Shown in pieces: positions 3,502-26,501 of a stretch of 29,735 bases of DNA (the stretch's first letter is position 1; each line of letters starts with the position of its first letter). The DNA comes from Candidatus Micrarchaeota archaeon. Lineage in GTDB: Archaea; Micrarchaeota; Micrarchaeia; Burarchaeales; JAKAKT01. The notes under the pieces were generated by a model, which worked only from the letters and a program-made list of their open reading frames with translations, did not search any database and was not told where the DNA came from. Location of the stretch: contig JAPLWU010000068.1 in assembly GCA_026396425.1 (NCBI GenBank), forward strand, positions 1 to 29,735, written 5' to 3'. Both the position numbers and the translations under genes were made by a program.

Positions 3502-4110
3502 CTACTTCTCCCCTCTCTCGTAGACCGCCATCACCGAGTTATCGAGCTCATCGAGTCTCGCAGGATTGAACTTGCGGAAGAACCTGATGAGCTCCTCCCG
3601 GTTCTCCCACTCCCCGGAATCGTTCAGCCCGTCGTTGTCGAGAATCCGAATCATCTTTTCCACGATCGGATGCCTCCCCGAAACCACGTAGGGCTCGCAG
3701 ACGATGACGCGCTTCCTGGTCCCGGAAACCGCCTTCTTCATAAACTCCTCGTGCTTCGGGTTCAGATGGTGGAGAAGATCCATGGCAACGCACACATCAA
3801 ACTCGCCGTAGCGGTCAAAAGTCATGGCGTCCTGCTTTATCACGTTCCTTTTCTTGTTCCTCGCGTAGCTTATGAACTGTTCGTTGAGTTCGAGCCCCAG
3901 GTAATAATTGCCGTTAAGATGGGACTGGAGCGTCCCCGTTCCGCAGCCCACGTCAAGAACGCGGTCGCCGGGCATTACGAGCCGTCTCACGTAATCGTAG
4001 CGCCTCCCAAGGTTTCTCCAATGCATCGCATGCATGGCGGCGCGGTATATCTCCCCTCTCCAATAAATCGGCGATTGCATCCTTTCACTTTTTTTGATTC
4101 TTGTCGGCAT
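3502..4110 (-). CDS. Class I SAM-dependent methyltransferase
   Basis: Motif I VLDVGCGTG, then GLELN, QDA and DLLHH. The longer track ORF (to 4245) overlaps the tRNA, so the start is placed at ATG 4110 (alternative ATG 4080). Confidence 0.85.
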   Translation of the reverse strand: MPTRIKKSERMQSPIYWRGEIYRAAMHAMHWRNLGRRYDYVRRLVMPGDRVLDVGCGTGTLQSHLNGNYYLGLELNEQFISYARNKKRNVIKQDAMTFDRYGEFDVCVAMDLLHHLNPKHEEFMKKAVSGTRKRVIVCEPYVVSGRHPIVEKMIRILDNDGLNDSGEWENREELIRFFRKFNPARLDELDNSVMAVYERGEK

Positions 4111-20208: not shown

Positions 20209-21174
20209 ATGGCGGACGAAATCGAATTGCCATGGACGGAAAAATACAGGCCATCTAGCCTTGCCGATGTCGCGGGCCAGACCGAAATAATCGAGCGGCT
20301 CGCGGCCTTCGTAAAGGGCAGGAGCATGCCCAATCTGCTTTTCGCGGGAGGGCCCGGAGTGGGAAAAACAACCGCAACCCTCGCCCTCGCGCAGGATTTG
20401 TTCGGAAAAGACTACCGCGGGAGCCTGCTCGAATTGAACGCGAGCGATGAGCGGGGGATAGACGTTGTCCGCGGGAAGATTAAGGACTTTGCTCGCACCA
20501 TTCCGCTGAGCGCGGTTCCGTTCAAGCTCATCTTCCTGGATGAAGCGGATGCGCTCACTTCCGATGCGCAGCAGGCCCTCAGGCGCACCATGGAGATGTA
20601 TTCGTCGGCAACGCGCTTCATCCTCTCGTGCAACTACTCCTCGAAAATAATCGAGCCCATACAGAGCAGGTGCGCGGTCTTCAGGTTCAGGCCCCTCGCC
20701 GAAGAGGACGTTATGAAGATGCTCGGGCGGATTGCGCAAGCCGAGCAGCTGCACGTCGACCCAAAGGCCTACAAAGCCATAATCTACATTTCTGAAGGCG
20801 ATATGCGCAGGGCCATCAACTCGCTGCAGGGCGCCTCAATGATGTCGAAGAACATAAAAGAAGAAACAATTTTCAAGGCTTCCTCGCGCGCCAAGCCCGA
20901 GGAGATTTTGCAGATGCTCGACCTCGCGCTGAAGGGAAAGTTCACCGAGGCCCGCGAGAAGCTCGACAAGGTGATGGTGGATTACGGCATGGGCGGGGAG
21001 GAAATAATGCTCCAGATGTACCGGGAAATAACGAGCTTGGACATTCCCGATAGGAAGAAAGTGGAACTGGTCGATAAGATTGGCGAGTATAACTTCAGAT
21101 TGACGGAAGGGGCGAACGAGCGAATCCAGTTGGAAGCTTTGCTCGCGAGAATAATGCTTATTGGGAAGGAGTAG
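20209..21174 (+). CDS. rfcS: Replication factor C small subunit
   Basis: PWTEKYRP, GGPGVGKTT, ELNASDERG, DEAD, IIEPIQSRC, EGDMRRAIN. No intein. Confidence 0.98.
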   Translation: MADEIELPWTEKYRPSSLADVAGQTEIIERLAAFVKGRSMPNLLFAGGPGVGKTTATLALAQDLFGKDYRGSLLELNASDERGIDVVRGKIKDFARTIPLSAVPFKLIFLDEADALTSDAQQALRRTMEMYSSATRFILSCNYSSKIIEPIQSRCAVFRFRPLAEEDVMKMLGRIAQAEQLHVDPKAYKAIIYISEGDMRRAINSLQGASMMSKNIKEETIFKASSRAKPEEILQMLDLALKGKFTEAREKLDKVMVDYGMGGEEIMLQMYREITSLDIPDRKKVELVDKIGEYNFRLTEGANERIQLEALLARIMLIGKE

Positions 21175-21669
21175 GTGGTATTAACGCTTCCAATGTTAGA
21201 CCTTTACCCTTCTTCTCTTGCCCAGGGTCCTTACATACTCCTTCTTTTCTATACCGTACCTTTTTTTGCGCCTATCGTTTCCATCATCGGCGTAGTCTAC
21301 TCATTCTGGTCCTACTTCAAATTCAAGAATTACGACAAAGGCGAGACAAAGTGGCTTGCGTATTGTGGAGTTTTATTTTTGTTCGGTATTGCTTCTGCAT
21401 GGATAATCCCAAGAATCGCAATCCCAAGCATCGGATTCATAAATATATTTATTGCGCCACTCGTTGACATAGCCATAGTTGCCATTTTTATTTACTACCG
21501 GAACAATTTCTTAAGAGGAAAGGCCTTGCCAGAGACAAGGAAGAGCGTCTACAACTCGTTAAAAATTCTTGCAGTCCTGGCCATTATTCGAATATTCCTC
21601 TCGCTCCTCCTTTTGGGTTTGTTTATCATAATCGCTCTGACAAACCAGCAATTCTCGCACTACGGATGA
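21175..21669 (+). CDS. Hypothetical membrane protein (AT-rich)
   Basis: About 4 hydrophobic segments. Visibly lower GC than flanking genes. Start at GTG 21175 or ATG 21193. Confidence 0.7.
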   Translation: MVLTLPMLDLYPSSLAQGPYILLLFYTVPFFAPIVSIIGVVYSFWSYFKFKNYDKGETKWLAYCGVLFLFGIASAWIIPRIAIPSIGFINIFIAPLVDIAIVAIFIYYRNNFLRGKALPETRKSVYNSLKILAVLAIIRIFLSLLLLGLFIIIALTNQQFSHYG

Positions 21670-21773
21670 CAAACCTGCAATTCTCGCACTAAGGGGGTTG
21701 TTTCTAGCTGATTCTGAACCTCAGCAGCGCAACGAAAGCCAACCGAAAGCATTATATCCGCTTATATGCATAC

Positions 21774-21798
21774 TATAGTCAACCAATAGGTGACTATA
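21774..21798. promoter_or_regulatory. Putative TA autoregulatory operator (TATAGTCA-N9-TGACTATA)
   Basis: Perfect 8-bp inverted repeat overlapping the GGTGA ribosome-binding site of the antitoxin gene. Confidence 0.55.
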
Positions 21799-22041
21799 AT
21801 GGCATACACGACGATACAAATAACCCCTCGCACGAGGAACCGTCTCGAAACCCTGAAGGGCTTCAGGCGCGAGACTTACGAGGAGGTTGTAAGCAGGCTT
21901 TTGGACTTGGTCCCGGAAGGCGACGAAGAGGGTGCTTACCGGCCCGAATTCAGGGCGAGTGTTCTGCGCGGAATGCTTGATATCAAGAATGGAAGGGTCA
22001 CCCCGCATGCACAATTGAAGAAAAGGCTCGGCCTGAAGTGA
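21799..22041 (+). CDS. Putative antitoxin (ribbon-helix-helix-like N-terminus)
   Basis: TTIQITPRTRNRLETLK...ETYEEVVSRLL, an acidic middle part, 80 aa, directly upstream of the RelE gene. Confidence 0.8.
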   Translation: MAYTTIQITPRTRNRLETLKGFRRETYEEVVSRLLDLVPEGDEEGAYRPEFRASVLRGMLDIKNGRVTPHAQLKKRLGLK

Positions 22042-22047
22042 TGGCAA

Positions 22048-22299
22048 ATGGCTTTTTCGATAGCCTACTCGGAGGAGTCGGTAGCAATACTGGAGCGGTT
22101 CGACCCCGCAGTTGCCAAGCGGATAGTTTCGAAGTTGCAGCAGGCGGCAAAGGACCCCATGCATTATTTCAAGCGGCTGAAAGACAGCGAATTATACAAG
22201 CTAAGAGTAGGCGACTACAGAGTAATGGCCAGACTAGACTTCGCGCAAGAAACCCTATTTATTGCCACTATCGGGCATAGAAGAAACATATACGACTAA
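22048..22299 (+). CDS. relE: RelE/ParE-family mRNA interferase toxin
   Basis: 83 aa. YKLRVGDYRV and IGHRRNIY motifs are intact. Confidence 0.92.
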   Translation: MAFSIAYSEESVAILERFDPAVAKRIVSKLQQAAKDPMHYFKRLKDSELYKLRVGDYRVMARLDFAQETLFIATIGHRRNIYD

Positions 22300-22301
22300 A
22301 T

Positions 22302-23296
22302 TCAACTTATCCTGAACCTCAGCAGCGCCGCAATTCCCCCAAATCCCGAAAGCTGGTCTGCCGGAGAATTTTCAGAACTGAAAATAGTGGTTTTTACCTT
22401 CGTTTTCTCCGCCTTCTCCAGCAATTCCTCAATTTTTTTGTCCTTTCTCAGTAACTCATCCACAACCAGCAACTCATCCACCGCGCCGTAATCGAGCGCT
22501 TTTGCAACCTCCTCTTTTCCATAGGCGACAAGACCGGCCTTCGCAATTTCGGCAATGAGTTTCTCAATCAGGACAAATTCCTTCTCGGCGCGCTGCTCGC
22601 CCGCAACTTTCTCGACCGCACCTCGCTTCAGGAGTTCGTAAACGCCGCTTTTCTCAGCGCTCGAGCAAGAATCGAATGCAATGCGCTTGAGCAGCTCGCC
22701 ATCCCTCTCTCCGATGAATTTCTTCAGATTGTCTTTCGCAAAGCCGGGGCCGGCAATCAATATTTTCTCGACCTTCATCCCCCCGATGACTTTCATTATC
22801 TCCCCGAAATAGCCCCGCTGTTTCTCATCGTGCTTTTCCTCCCCTTTCCTCGCCTCATTATTTATCTCAAACTCGAACTCAACCCCGTAGCCCCTCAAAG
22901 TGGCAAATGTTGCCTTCCTCTCGTCCATTGCCACTATCCCGACTTGAGCTGGTATTCCTTCCAGTCCTTCTGGATTGCAATCCTTCCGTCAATCTCCAAA
23001 TCGAGCGTGTGGTGGCTCCCAATCTGCACGTATTCCTCCGGCGTGCCGGACTTTATCACGCCCGTAACCCTCAAAATATTGGCGTGCTTGTGGAACTCGA
23101 TTTTTTTGGCTTCCAGCTCGATAGTGACCGCCTTCCTCTCGCCGCTGTCGCCCTCGTCCAATTTGAACCTGCGAAAACTTTTCCCCTTTACCAAATCGCC
23201 CTGCTCCAGCACCCGCTCGAGGTGCCAGAGGTCCTCCAGCGATTCGGGCACGACTTTCAGCTCCCCGCTCTTCTTATCAAAATGGACTATGCGCAT
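22302..23296 (-). pseudogene. pelA: Pelota (mRNA surveillance / ribosome rescue), split into 22934..23296 and 22302..22934 by an out-of-frame deletion
   Basis: N-part has PESLEDLWHL and GSHHTLDLE. C-part has AGPGFAK, YGKEEVAKALDYGAV..LLVVD and GFGGIAALLRF. Frame switch at 22943/22944, with the linker helix missing. Confidence 0.85.
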
Positions 23297-23378
23297 GCAA
23301 ACCCCTAGTGATACAAAACATTATATCCCCTCTTCCCTATATATGTTGTCTAATTCTTCAGGGTTGGAGTGAAGTTGC

Positions 23379-23783
23379 ATGACCGAAAAAGCGCAATCGG
23401 AAATAGGTCGGCTGGCGAATATTCTCAATACCGTCGGGGCAGTCGAGCCGCAGGATGTCGTAAAGCGAGTCTCCCATCTCGAACCGGCAGATCTTCTGAA
23501 GCTTTTTGCGGACACAAGGCCCCCGGCCGCAAGGGAGGCAATACTCGAGGTCGCAAAGAGAAAACTGGAGAACGAGAAAACACTTTCCCCTTTCGCCCAT
23601 ACGATGCTTCTCGTGATTTCTGGCGTCAAAGGAAGGGAGGGCGAGCTTGCAAGCGAGATGCTCAAACTCCATGCCTCGCGCGATGCGCCTTCCTGGGGGG
23701 ACGCCGGTCCTGCAAATACATTCTTGCGTGGCTCGGGGGGAGCGCCCCTGCCGAATGGCGTGAAAGGCAAACTCAAGTCATAA
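23379..23783 (+). CDS. Hypothetical alpha-helical protein
   Basis: 134-aa ORF divergent from pelota with helical periodicity. No recognisable motif. Confidence 0.6.
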   Translation: MTEKAQSEIGRLANILNTVGAVEPQDVVKRVSHLEPADLLKLFADTRPPAAREAILEVAKRKLENEKTLSPFAHTMLLVISGVKGREGELASEMLKLHASRDAPSWGDAGPANTFLRGSGGAPLPNGVKGKLKS

Positions 23784-23902
23784 GCTGGGAGATTGGGGCT
23801 TCGCCCTCGCGTAAACGAAGCAAAAGGCGGGATGAGAAGCTTTATATAAAACCTGGCGCATATAATTATGCTTATTCTGGCCTTTAGCTGGAGGGGGAGA
23901 TT

Positions 23903-24697
23903 ATGGTGAAAAACGCAACTGCAGGTGCTAACGTTGATAGTCCGGGTGATGCTCTTTTAAAATACGCGGAAGAACTCAGCGGGGCGACTGCCGACGGAAC
24001 CGTCGGCATGCTAAGGGCTACGCGCGATACGGCAGCCAGGTTCATGGCCCTTTCCAAACTCGAGAAAATGGTGAACGAGAACCAGATTTTATCCATGAGG
24101 TCTTTGGAGGCAATTGAAGAATTGGCGACTAGCACGAACAAGGTCGAGAATATATCCGCAAACAGGATACTCGACACTTACCTGCAGAAAATACATCTTA
24201 ACCACGGGGCGACAGTGGCCGACCAGCTTAATGCATTCGAGTTCGCATTAAAGGACGAGGGCAAGGTCGCGGTTCTGTTAAGGGTTCGTGAAATCTTAAC
24301 CTACGAGCGGGTGTCCCTTTCGCCAGAAACGGAAAAGAAATTAAGGATAATACGAAGGTCAAACGAAAGCTCAAACCAGGTTTCCAAGCTTGCCAGAACC
24401 ATACTCCTGACCGACCGGAGAAACAAAAGCGCCGGGAAAAACGCCCTGCTTGCGCATCTTGCAATCACAAGTCCAGATCCGACAATGCAGGCGGCCAACC
24501 TGCGGCGCCTTGCGGGGAATGCATCCTCAGGTTCGCCGTTCTTGCAGTCAACAGTCGAACTTGTTACCCGGCAGGCCCGCGACGACAAGGCGTTCGCGCA
24601 TCCCGCAAAGGCCATCCTCGATGGCTTGACGAGACACGATTCGGTACTGCGCGACAGGCGTCCGAGAACACAGCCCCCGCAAAAGGCCCGCCTCTAG
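23903..24697 (+). CDS. Hypothetical alpha-helical (HEAT-like?) protein
   Basis: 264 aa. GGAGGGGGAG ribosome-binding site and upstream TTTATATAAA. Basic Pro-rich C-terminal tail. Confidence 0.7.
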   Translation: MVKNATAGANVDSPGDALLKYAEELSGATADGTVGMLRATRDTAARFMALSKLEKMVNENQILSMRSLEAIEELATSTNKVENISANRILDTYLQKIHLNHGATVADQLNAFEFALKDEGKVAVLLRVREILTYERVSLSPETEKKLRIIRRSNESSNQVSKLARTILLTDRRNKSAGKNALLAHLAITSPDPTMQAANLRRLAGNASSGSPFLQSTVELVTRQARDDKAFAHPAKAILDGLTRHDSVLRDRRPRTQPPQKARL

Positions 24698-24746
24698 CTC
24701 CTATTTTAATTCTTTATTTTCAATTCCTTAGTGGTAAGTGGTTAAA

Positions 24747-26501
24747 ATGCGAATAGCCGTGATTGACAGGGACAAGTGCACGAAGGAGCAGTGCGGCTAC
24801 CTCTGCCAGAAGATATGCCCCGGAGTGCGGATGGGCGACGAAACCATTACGTTGGACGAGGAAGGGTTCCCGGTGATTTCCGAGGACCTGTGCACGGGAT
24901 GCGGCATATGCCCCAAAAGATGCCCGGTGGGCGCGATAAAAATCATCAACCTGCCTTCCGAAGTAGGTTTACTGGTTTTCCAGTACGGGGTGAATGCCTT
25001 CAGGCTGTTCAATCTGCCACTGCCGAAGAAAAACGCAGTTGTAGGGCTCGTTGGCGCGAACGGAATAGGGAAAACCACGGCGCTTCAGTTGCTCTCGAAA
25101 AAACTCGCGCCGAATTTTGGGGAATATGCGAGGAAGGAAAGCGAGAAGGAACTCTTACTCCATTTCTCCAGGCATCCGGAACTGCAGAATTATTTCCGTT
25201 CAATGGGCGGGGGAGTGAAATTGTCCTACAAGCCGCAGAACGTGGAGAAAGTGGCGGAAAAAATAAAAGGAAAAGTCGGCCCGATTCTGAAGAAGGCGGA
25301 CGAGCGAAAGGTGCTTGACGAGGTTGTGAAATCTTTCGAGCTGGAAAACATACTCGACAGGGAGATTTCGCATCTGAGTGGCGGGGAACTGCAGCGCCTG
25401 TCCATCGCAATCGCATACATGCGAAAGGCAGACTTCTATTATTTCGACGAGCCGTCGAGCTACCTCGACATAGCCCAGCGCCTGAAAATGGCGGCGAAAA
25501 TAAAGGAGCTTGCCGGGCATGCCAACGTCATGGTCGTTGAGCACGATTTGGCGGTTCTCGATTACCTGAGCGACTACGTGCACGTTTTCTACGGCGAGGA
25601 GGGCGCCTACGGGGTCGTCTCGCATTCAAAGAGTTCGCGCTCCGGAATAAACGAATACCTCGCGGGCTACATAAAGGGGGAGAACGTCAGGTTCAGGACT
25701 TACGAGATAAAATTCGAAAAATCCTCGCCGCAGGAGCGCTCCAAATCCAAAATCGCGTTCGAATACCCCGCAATGGGGAAGAACTACGGCTCCTTCTCCA
25801 TGCACTGCGAGAATGGCGAAGTCCGCAAAGGCGAGACAATCGGAATCCTCGGCCCGAACGCAATCGGCAAGACGACTTTCATCAAAATGCTCGCGGGCGT
25901 GGAAGAGCCCGACGCGGGAAAGAGGATGAAAGGGCTGAAAGTCTCCTACAAGCCGCAGTACCTGGAAAGCGATTTCGAGGGAACGGTTGCGGAATTAATC
26001 GCCAATTCGGGAATCAACGCGCCTATTTTTGATTCCGAAATAAGGAGAAGATTGAACATTGACCCGCTGATGCTGAAGCAGGTGAAAAACCTGAGCGGCG
26101 GGGAACTGCAGCGCCTCTCAATCGCCATATGCCTCGCGACTGACGCCGACCTTTACCTGCTGGACGAGCCCTCGGCATTCCTCGACATCGAGCAGCGACT
26201 CATCTTTGCGTCGGTTCTCAAGAACGTCATGGGAAAACGCGAGTCGCCCGCCTTTGTCGTCGACCATGACATCGTGCTCATAGACTCCGTGGCCGACGCG
26301 CTCATGGTTTTCGAGGGCGAGTCCGGGAAATCGGGAAAGGCGGGCAAGCCAATGGGCAAGCGCGAGGGAATGAACGCGTTCCTAAAGGAGGTGGGCGTCA
26401 CCCTGCGAAGGGACAAGGACTCGCACAGGCCGCGCATCAACAAGCAGGGCTCGCAGATGGACTCGGAGCAGAAGAAGAAGGGCGAATATTATTATACGTA
26501 A
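24747..26501 (+). CDS. Ribosome recycling ATPase ABCE1 (RLI)
   Basis: Two 4Fe-4S motifs (CTKEQCGYLCQKICP, CTGCGICPKRCP). Two NBDs with GANGIGKTT/LSGGELQR and GPNAIGKTT/LSGGELQR. Start at ATG 24747. Confidence 0.98.
   Translation: MRIAVIDRDKCTKEQCGYLCQKICPGVRMGDETITLDEEGFPVISEDLCTGCGICPKRCPVGAIKIINLPSEVGLLVFQYGVNAFRLFNLPLPKKNAVVGLVGANGIGKTTALQLLSKKLAPNFGEYARKESEKELLLHFSRHPELQNYFRSMGGGVKLSYKPQNVEKVAEKIKGKVGPILKKADERKVLDEVVKSFELENILDREISHLSGGELQRLSIAIAYMRKADFYYFDEPSSYLDIAQRLKMAAKIKELAGHANVMVVEHDLAVLDYLSDYVHVFYGEEGAYGVVSHSKSSRSGINEYLAGYIKGENVRFRTYEIKFEKSSPQERSKSKIAFEYPAMGKNYGSFSMHCENGEVRKGETIGILGPNAIGKTTFIKMLAGVEEPDAGKRMKGLKVSYKPQYLESDFEGTVAELIANSGINAPIFDSEIRRRLNIDPLMLKQVKNLSGGELQRLSIAICLATDADLYLLDEPSAFLDIEQRLIFASVLKNVMGKRESPAFVVDHDIVLIDSVADALMVFEGESGKSGKAGKPMGKREGMNAFLKEVGVTLRRDKDSHRPRINKQGSQMDSEQKKKGEYYYT

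What the first reader, a model, noticed from the sequence alone, without database searches (positions are those of the whole stretch)
21704..22334. RelE toxin-antitoxin cassette integrated into the pelota 3' end, leaving a synonymous-variant duplicate
The functional end reads GCG CTG CTG AGG TTC AGG ATA AGT TGA (22302-22328). The orphan copy reads GCG CTG CTG AGG TTC AGA ATC AGC TAG (21704-21730). Both encode ALLRFRIS*, and every difference is synonymous or stop-to-stop, which a decaying local duplication would rarely give. Established: integrative elements using a gene's 3' end as att site carry a replacement end. Inference: a ~600-bp TA-only mini-island captured from a related lineage, using a protein-coding ribosome-rescue gene rather than a tRNA as its target, and mobilised in trans or by homologous replacement because no integrase is present.
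Basis: partly seen in the sequence, partly recalled or inferred. Interest (0 to 1): 0.75.

Follow-up and report, generated by a model that had tools for sequence, protein, structure and literature searches.

The report
Toxin-antitoxin islet in pelota's end
A 0.6-kb toxin-antitoxin gene pair in a tiny freshwater archaeon sits between two differently spelled copies of the last codons of the ribosome-rescue gene pelota, and similar integrase-free toxin-antitoxin islets recur at pelota and tRNA gene ends in other archaea.

Summary
A 17-nt exact repeat occurs only at 21714-21730 and 22312-22328, in the window and in the whole genome. Both 27-nt copies encode ALLRFRIS-stop. All 5 differences are synonymous or stop-to-stop (chance about 6e-4) and fall in the last 4 codons. 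Between them lies only a promoter, a DUF7557 antitoxin and a RelE/ParE toxin.

- Two other Micrarchaeia genomes carry an orphan pelota end with almost only synonymous changes. G016 has a different pair (HEPN/MNT) as cargo. G186 has 63 nt.
- Homologous DUF7557/RelE pairs elsewhere are the sole cargo between repeats of tRNA-Thr, tRNA-Leu and tRNA-Glu 3' parts, or of protein-gene ends.
- The pair also sits at pelota's end in at least four other lineages, but is missing in close relatives.
- Its divergence does not follow host divergence.

Best reading: a Campbell-type insertion of a small cassette that carries its own pelota-like end. No integrase is inside or nearby.

Not shown: an empty site in the same species, a circular form, or the enzyme. 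Read depth is only about 5x. I class it as a new variant of a known kind (att-flanked, integrase-less islets) of moderate interest.

The parts
21704..21730 (-). Orphan pelota end, encoding ALLRFRIS-stop. In the Campbell reading, 21704-21713 is the native stop-proximal part and 21714-21730 is the shared 17-nt core.
21731..21798 (+). Cassette arm (21731-21750, no homologue in related cassettes), followed by a BRE/TATA-like promoter and CTATAG palindromes upstream of the antitoxin.
   Evidence: The promoter part is alignable by eye with G001 and L068. The promoter role is inferred.
21799..22041 (+). Antitoxin, 80 aa, DUF7557 with a ribbon-helix-helix-like N-terminus.
   Evidence: PF24434, 5.7e-8; 20 invariant columns among 8 relatives
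22048..22299 (+). Toxin, 83 aa, RelE/ParE superfamily.
   Evidence: PF05016, 6.5e-9. The nearest solved chains are RelE-type: 2khe, Rv2866, PHS013, RelE3.
22302..22328 (-). Pelota end now in use. 22302-22311 is the replacement end brought by the cassette and 22312-22328 is the 17-nt core. It lies 2 nt from the toxin stop.
22302..23296 (-). Pelota, in two ORFs: 22934-23296 (domain 1) and 22302-22934 (domains 2 and 3). About 17 linker residues are missing.
   Evidence: Logan contigs leave 22922-22943 uncovered.
21175..21669 (+). Membrane ORFan between RFC and the islet. It is convergent with the orphan pelota end and is probably the native neighbour of pelota before the insertion.
   Evidence: No Pfam or NCBIfam hit. 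No homologue beyond weak partial matches (best E-value 1.4e-5) in the 200 other class genomes searched. GC is 0.40-0.44 against 0.50-0.60 in the flanks.
21638..21694 (+). A 29-nt tandem duplication of the membrane ORF's 3' end (2 differences over the 28 aligned nt), 9 nt from the orphan pelota end. Probably an unrelated local duplication.
   Evidence: D1. Short-range repeats of this kind are common throughout the genome.

Best explanation
The 598-nt unit (core, short arm, promoter, DUF7557 antitoxin, RelE-type toxin, 10-nt replacement end) is an integrase-less, att-flanked islet. A small circular DNA carried the TA pair next to a pelota-like segment. A single crossover joined it to the chromosome inside the conserved A-L-L-R-F codons of pelota (Campbell-type insertion). 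The gene now ends with the cassette's own spelling of RIS-stop. The original end is left 0.6 kb away, abutting the old convergent neighbour, the membrane ORF. What is shown: the anatomy, the coding-type divergence of the two ends, and the recurrence of the same structure elsewhere. What is inferred: the circular intermediate and the direction of the event. What is open: the catalyst, which could be a tyrosine recombinase acting in trans or host homologous recombination on the conserved motif. The TA pair presumably acts as an addiction module that keeps the islet in place.
For: (a) The repeats bracket only promoter, antitoxin and toxin, within 20 nt upstream of the TATA region and 2 nt of the toxin stop. 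(b) All 5 differences are silent and clustered beyond a 17-nt identical core. That is the pattern of two coding alleles joined at a crossover, not of a decaying copy. (c) G016:C5 (L021) is an independent replicate. The last 36 nt of pelota recur 1.06 kb downstream with 8 differences, 6 of them synonymous, and an 11-nt core on the same A-A-L-L codons. The cargo is an MNT (NTP_transf_2) plus HEPN pair, and the orphan abuts a convergent EamA gene. (d) In G186:C59 (L205) a second copy of the last 36 nt of pelota starts 99 nt downstream (63 nt lie between the two), with 4 differences, all synonymous. (e) Homologues of this TA pair are the sole cargo between repeats at other sites. L105/L112 sit at a tRNA-Thr-like gene; its orphan is a 49-nt copy that lacks the gene's 22-nt intron. 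L116/L117 sit at tRNA-Leu(CAG). L142/L143 sit at tRNA-Glu, with a 69-nt diverged tRNA-Glu-like orphan. L041 sits at a TPR gene end (16 nt) and L037 at the end of a 51-aa ORF (39 nt, 1 mismatch). Start-to-start spacing is 556-783 nt, and the flanks hold housekeeping genes and no integrase. (f) TA divergence does not track host divergence. The hosts of L068 and G001 have RFC 88% identical but toxins only 58% identical. G000 and G001 have RFC 74% and pelota 61% identical but toxins 65% identical. (g) Presence and absence vary among close hosts. P0002's pelota is 84% identical to G001's but has no TA downstream.
Against: No empty site, attP junction or circular form was seen. The organism occurs only in its own sample at about 5x depth, and not all laid contigs were listed. 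There is no integrase in the window. The genome has only one tyrosine recombinase (C8, 423 aa), with no pelota-like sequence next to it. No full-size element carrying this att was found in relatives within 19 kb of pelota, in viral contigs or in plasmids. The nearest TA relatives (G001, L068, the 4124-nt contig) sit at the same place with no orphan, which vertical inheritance would also give. The membrane ORF, not the TA pair, is the compositionally odd, lineage-specific piece.
Confidence: 0.55

Rival explanations
1. The islet is the last remnant of a larger integrase-bearing element (a true CIME). A full-size element once integrated at pelota's end, and internal deletions removed everything except the TA pair, which resists loss.
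For: Att-type repeats with element-borne replacement ends are the hallmark of tyrosine-integrase elements. CIMEs are defined as elements that kept attL and attR but lost their integration genes (PMC5704250). Archaeal elements do integrate in the 3'-distal parts of protein genes and supply a new stop (PMC6563490). TA modules are the part expected to survive decay.
Against: In at least 7 independent places the repeats hug the TA pair closely. The gaps are 0-60 nt on both sides in most of them, about 140 nt at most, and there is no other leftover. Random deletions should leave varied debris. No parent element with the same att was found near pelota in 36 genomes, or as a second same-contig copy of the motif in 400.
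Confidence: 0.2
2. The TA-pelota linkage is ancestral and vertical. The orphan arose when DNA from a relative was imported by homologous recombination in pelota plus an illegitimate join, or when the membrane ORF with an adjoining pelota end was inserted between RFC and the TA pair.
For: RFC-TA-pelota is the order in L068 and in the 4124-nt contig, and TA-pelota in G001 and L113, all without orphans. The membrane ORF is an ORFan with low GC found only here. The RFC-to-pelota interval holds different cargo in different families.
Against: This reading does not explain why the join falls exactly at the edge of a 17-nt identity. It does not explain why the same geometry recurs at pelota in G016 and G186, and at tRNA ends for homologous pairs. 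TA and host divergences are incongruent.
Confidence: 0.2
3. The two copies come from a local duplication followed by drift, or from an assembly artefact that joined two strain variants.
For: The genome is rich in short local duplications, including one 9 nt away. Coverage is low.
Against: Silent-only, clustered differences have a probability of about 6e-4 under drift. A separate k=31 contig spans the whole structure without a mismatch. A 17-nt identity cannot mislead assemblers that use k of 21 or more.
Confidence: 0.03

Closest known systems
CIMEs (cis-mobilizable elements) derived from ICEs such as ICESt1/ICESt3, which integrate at the 3' end of fda in Streptococcus (definition in PMC5704250; the fda example is from my own knowledge)
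   Same: They are flanked by attL and attR, which are direct repeats containing the 3' end of a protein-coding gene. They carry no integrase or transfer genes. Movement is thought to depend on a recombinase supplied in trans.
   Different: CIMEs are bacterial, several kb long, and have recognisable parent ICEs with the same att. Here the unit is 0.6 kb with a TA pair as sole cargo, lies in a DPANN archaeon, and has no parent element in sight.
[quoted passage not shown] 2019, PMC6563490)
   Same: They are archaeal and target the 3' end of a protein gene. The element supplies a new stop codon and short att repeats.
   Different: Integrases mark the site-specific elements described there. The smallest cryptic element reported is 2.6 kb and includes an integrase. 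None is TA-only and none is reported at pelota.
Integron gene cassettes that carry TA pairs (Vibrio superintegron) and pdif modules of Acinetobacter plasmids (from my own knowledge)
   Same: They are very small promoter-plus-gene modules, often TA pairs, moved by a recombinase encoded elsewhere.
   Different: Those use attC or dif-like sites of fixed structure. Here each cassette carries a copy of its target's own 3' end (pelota, tRNA or another gene). No attC or dif-like site was looked for or seen.
Type II RelE/ParE toxin-antitoxin systems
   Same: The toxin matches PF05016 and the nearest solved chains are RelE-type. A small DNA-binding antitoxin gene lies immediately upstream in the same operon.
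   Different: The antitoxin belongs to the uncharacterised family DUF7557. No activity has been tested.

Membership tests
Site-specific integrative element (tyrosine-recombinase type) | Direct repeats (attL/attR) bracket the element, with an identical core | tested here: met
   A 17-nt exact core flanks the TA pair and is unique in the genome
Site-specific integrative element (tyrosine-recombinase type) | The element carries a homologue of the target's 3' end that restores the gene | tested here: met
   Both ends encode ALLRFRIS-stop and differ only silently. The same holds in G016 and G186.
Site-specific integrative element (tyrosine-recombinase type) | An integrase gene lies inside the element | tested here: not met
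   Only two ORFs lie between the repeats. The single PF00589 gene of the genome is on contig C8.
Site-specific integrative element (tyrosine-recombinase type) | An empty site (attB) exists in related genomes | tested here: inconclusive
   No species-level relative exists. More distant relatives lack the pair at pelota's end (P0002's genome, G002, G004), but their neighbouring genes differ.
Site-specific integrative element (tyrosine-recombinase type) | An excised circular form (attP junction) exists | tested here: inconclusive
   No joint was seen in contigs of three runs at about 5x depth. Contigs drop rare variants.
CIME (decayed element that kept its att sites) | It keeps attL and attR and lacks integration and transfer genes | tested here: met
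CIME (decayed element that kept its att sites) | A parent or helper element with the same att specificity exists | tested here: not met
   None was found within 19 kb of pelota in 36 genomes, in 400 class genomes by motif, in viral contigs or in plasmids.
Transposon or casposon with target-site duplication | The flanking repeats are identical copies of one target sequence, and the element has terminal inverted repeats | tested here: not met
   The copies differ at 5 of 27 nt in a coding-type pattern. The L105 orphan lacks the intron of the tRNA it copies. No terminal inverted repeats were found.
Type II toxin-antitoxin, RelE/ParE superfamily | Toxin fold family, with an adjacent upstream antitoxin in one operon | tested here: met
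   PF05016 and PF24434, with a 6-nt gap between the genes
Type II toxin-antitoxin, RelE/ParE superfamily | Toxicity that the antitoxin neutralises | not testable with these tools
   This needs expression in a laboratory host

The most novel reading that the evidence does not exclude
Micrarchaeia and other archaea harbour a class of integrase-free mini-cassettes. Each consists of a promoter, a TA pair and a recoded copy of the target's last codons or of a tRNA 3' half. Each homes to that target, pelota's conserved C-terminal motif being one recurrent site. They move as circles of about 0.6-1 kb, using either a recombinase encoded elsewhere or host homologous recombination alone. The repeated pairing of RNA-cleaving toxins (RelE-type, HEPN) with the ribosome-rescue gene pelota may also be functional, for instance through convergent or read-through transcription that couples toxin and rescue-factor levels.
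Probability: 0.25. Interest if true: 0.75.

Novelty: new variant of a known kind. Interest (0 to 1): 0.55.

Why it matters
Chromosomal TA pairs are usually assumed to be mobile, but how they move has rarely been seen. Here the insertion scars are legible. The cassette brings its own, differently spelled end of the target gene, the cargo is the TA pair alone, and the same design recurs at pelota and at tRNA genes across archaeal lineages. If these units move without their own integrase, they would be among the smallest integrative elements known. They would also give a concrete route for TA spread in the reduced genomes of DPANN archaea. The recurrent choice of the ribosome-rescue gene as landing site by RNA-cleaving toxins is a testable hint of a functional link.

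Tried and rejected
1. Empty-site or circle reads. The one read-laying run gave only low-depth contigs. The structure is confirmed but no alternative junction was listed.
2. G001's contig ends 79 nt upstream of its antitoxin, and its Logan contigs break inside the toxin, so its orphan region cannot be seen. G001's RFC contig does not lead into the TA pair.
3. The 4124-nt and 1087-nt contigs with the closest antitoxins have no DNA on file.
4. Sister species G014 has the 51-aa target ORF of L037 with one repeat copy and no TA, but a different downstream gene, so it is not a clean empty site.
5. A 23-nt degenerate end-plus-core pattern gave 0 hits in genome contigs. The 4 viral hits of the 17-mer have unrelated flanks and fit chance.
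6. The antitoxin family has no convincing hit in IMG/VR or PLSDB.
7. An 8-mer (GCTGAGGT) is shared by the G000 and L041 repeats, but the cassettes lie in opposite orientation to it, so I treat it as chance.
8. Possible extension of homology beyond the core (an 8-mer GCTTTCGG, 13-20 nt away) is too weak to use.
9. Gene-end short duplications as 'scars': 3' ends are only about 1.5-2x enriched over internal windows, so I did not pursue this.
10. FastTree and treekit were unavailable. Only an NJ tree was made, and I lean on it lightly.
11. G232 has two pelota ends on two contigs. They look like strain duplicates, not an orphan.

Full report
**What is there.** The window comes from a 1.19-Mb, 87%-complete MAG, and source names on the nearest pelota homologues place it in Micrarchaeota. 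It occurs at about 5x depth in one freshwater-sediment sample. The gene order is:
- RFC small subunit (20209-21174, + strand)
- a 164-aa membrane ORFan (21175-21669, +)
- a 29-nt tandem duplication of that ORF's end (21638-21694)
- the orphan pelota end (21704-21730, read on the - strand)
- a promoter-like region, then a DUF7557 antitoxin (21799-22041, +) and a RelE/ParE toxin (22048-22299, +)
- pelota (22302-23296, -), 2 nt after the toxin stop
- ABCE1 further on

The shared 17-mer occurs twice in the window, against none in 100 shuffles, and only twice in the whole genome. All five differences are silent or stop-to-stop. Five random substitutions would keep the peptide and stop in only 5.8e-4 of trials. 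All four changed codons are the last four of nine, which has a chance of 0.008.

Two conclusions follow. Both copies were under coding constraint while they diverged, and there is a sharp breakpoint between an identical block and a diverged block. A k=31 contig from the public run spans 21646-22673 without a mismatch, so the arrangement is real.

**Who has the TA pair at pelota.** No genome or contig closer than about 62% pelota identity exists in the collections searched. The nearest antitoxins are 70-77% identical, depending on the alignment method. Those whose downstream gene could be identified lie at pelota's 3' end:
- G001
- a JGI contig, L068, with the order RFC, TA, then convergent pelota
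- a 4124-nt contig with the same order
- probably a 1087-nt contig
- L113, a more distant pair, is also convergent with pelota

None of these shows an orphan. The pair is absent from pelota's end in P0002's genome, whose pelota is 84% identical to G001's. It is also absent there in G002, G004 and the rest of the order.

TA divergence does not follow host divergence. The hosts of L068 and G001 have RFC 88% identical but toxins only 58% identical. G000 and G001 have RFC 74% and pelota 61% identical but toxins 65% identical. This fits turnover of cassettes at one site better than strict vertical descent. The sequences are short and the taxa few, so the point is suggestive only.

**Independent replicates at pelota.** I scanned up to 19 kb downstream of pelota in 36 genomes for in-frame peptides resembling the gene's own last 11 residues. 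I found the window's orphan and one more, in G016 (family f7).

In G016 the last 36 nt of pelota recur 1.06 kb downstream. There are 8 differences, 6 of them synonymous, and an 11-nt identical core on the same A-A-L-L codons. The orphan touches the stop of a convergent EamA gene. The cargo is a promoter plus a wHTH-nucleotidyltransferase and a HEPN protein, which is a different TA family.

A motif scan of 400 class genomes found a third case, G186. A second copy of the last 36 nt of pelota starts 99 nt downstream, with 63 nt between the two copies. It has four differences, all synonymous and all in the last five codons. The 63 nt between the copies contain a hairpin.

**Homologous cassettes at other sites.** I compared flank against flank in 93 DUF7557/RelE pairs, taken from the order and from 80 metagenome loci. 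Significant repeats hug the pair in seven independent places, counting the window's own. Besides the window's, they are:
- L105/L112: a tRNA that ARAGORN calls Gly but whose anticodon loop reads Thr-GGT, with a 22-nt intron. The orphan is a 49-nt copy without the intron.
- L116/L117: tRNA-Leu(CAG).
- L142/L143: tRNA-Glu(CTC), with a 69-nt diverged tRNA-Glu-like orphan.
- L041: the last codons and stop of a TPR gene (16 nt).
- L037: the end of a 51-aa ORF (39 nt, 1 mismatch).
- L085: an intergenic repeat of 49 nt at 80% identity.

Start-to-start spacing is 556-783 nt. The TA pair is the only cargo, and the surrounding genes are housekeeping genes with no integrase. The intron-less and diverged orphans rule out a target-site duplication. 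They match what integrative elements do, which is to carry their own version of the target's end.

**Mechanism.** The simplest reading that fits all cases is Campbell-type insertion of a small circle that carries a TA pair and a homologue of the target's 3' end. The crossover falls in the most conserved stretch. This is established behaviour for archaeal and bacterial integrative elements, including at protein-gene 3' ends (PMC6563490). Integrase-less derivatives that keep their att sites are known as CIMEs (PMC5704250).

Three things differ here: the minimal size, the TA-only cargo repeated in many places, and the absence of any visible parent element. G000 has a single tyrosine recombinase on another contig, with a zinc ribbon and next to an HNH gene. 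No copy of the core lies beside it.

I cannot tell whether a recombinase acts in trans, or whether host homologous recombination on 11-36-nt identities is enough. I also cannot exclude that these islets are the addiction-protected last remnants of larger elements. The tight boundaries argue against that last reading.

**Alternative for this locus.** The membrane ORF is the lineage-specific, low-GC piece, and relatives have RFC directly followed by the TA pair. The orphan could therefore have come in with the membrane ORF. That reading does not explain the breakpoint geometry or its recurrence, so I give it about 0.2.

**Limits.** No empty site or circle was seen at 5x coverage. Only an NJ tree was possible. 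Pelota itself is split in this assembly, at a place that the public contigs leave uncovered.

**Verdict.** It is a new variant of a known kind, of moderate interest.

Noticed in passing
window 22900-22960: Pelota is split. The TAG stop of the domain-1 ORF overlaps the GTG of the domain-2/3 ORF, and 17 conserved linker residues (37 nt net) are missing compared with relatives. Public Logan contigs leave 22922-22943 uncovered, so an assembly fault at 5x depth cannot be excluded.
   Followed up: partly
L021 (G016:C5:66526-68644), 432-1497: A second TA-only islet at pelota's 3' end, in another family. The cargo is an MNT (wHTH-nucleotidyltransferase, 890-1444) plus HEPN (468-893) pair. It lies between the pelota end in use and a 36-nt orphan copy that carries mostly synonymous changes.
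   Followed up: yes
L205 (G186:C59), 3569-3703: The last 36 nt of pelota are duplicated 99 nt downstream, with 4 differences, all synonymous. The 63 nt in between hold a GGGGAACC/GGTTCCCC hairpin. This may be a cargo-less or emptied islet.
   Followed up: partly
L105 2852-3575; L116 2334-3182; L142 2848-3708: TA-only islets of the same DUF7557/RelE family lie next to tRNA genes in GC-rich archaeal metagenome contigs. Each is closed by a partial, diverged copy of the tRNA. The L105 copy lacks the 22-nt intron of the intact gene. ARAGORN labels that intron-bearing tRNA Gly(acc), but the anticodon loop reads GGT (Thr).
   Followed up: partly
window 21638-21694: A 29-nt tandem duplication covers the membrane ORF's last codons. 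The first copy reads through a former stop (TAA to TAC) into the TGA that begins the second copy. Similar short duplications near gene ends occur on contigs C36, C148, C52, C1 and C90.
   Followed up: partly
window 21175-21669: A 164-aa multi-pass membrane ORF with no family hit. Only weak partial matches (best E-value 1.4e-5) turned up in the 200 other class genomes searched. GC is about 0.41 against 0.54 for the genome. It starts right at the RFC stop.
   Followed up: partly
window 20209-26501 and relatives' loci L005-L033: RFC, a variable interval, pelota and ABCE1 form a frame found in several families of the order. The interval between RFC and pelota holds different cargo in each lineage: the TA pair, a 288-aa enzyme, EamA-type transporters, or secreted proteins.
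   Followed up: partly
L051 (G024:C9:43183-46425): A distant member of the same TA family lies immediately upstream of pelota and is co-oriented with it (antitoxin, toxin, pelota). This is a third, phylogenetically separate association of this TA family with pelota.
   Followed up: no
G000:C8:12294-13565 (L074 1018-2289): The only tyrosine recombinase of the genome. It is 423 aa with a C-terminal zinc ribbon and sits beside an HNH endonuclease gene. Whether it is XerA or part of a mobile element is undetermined.
   Followed up: partly
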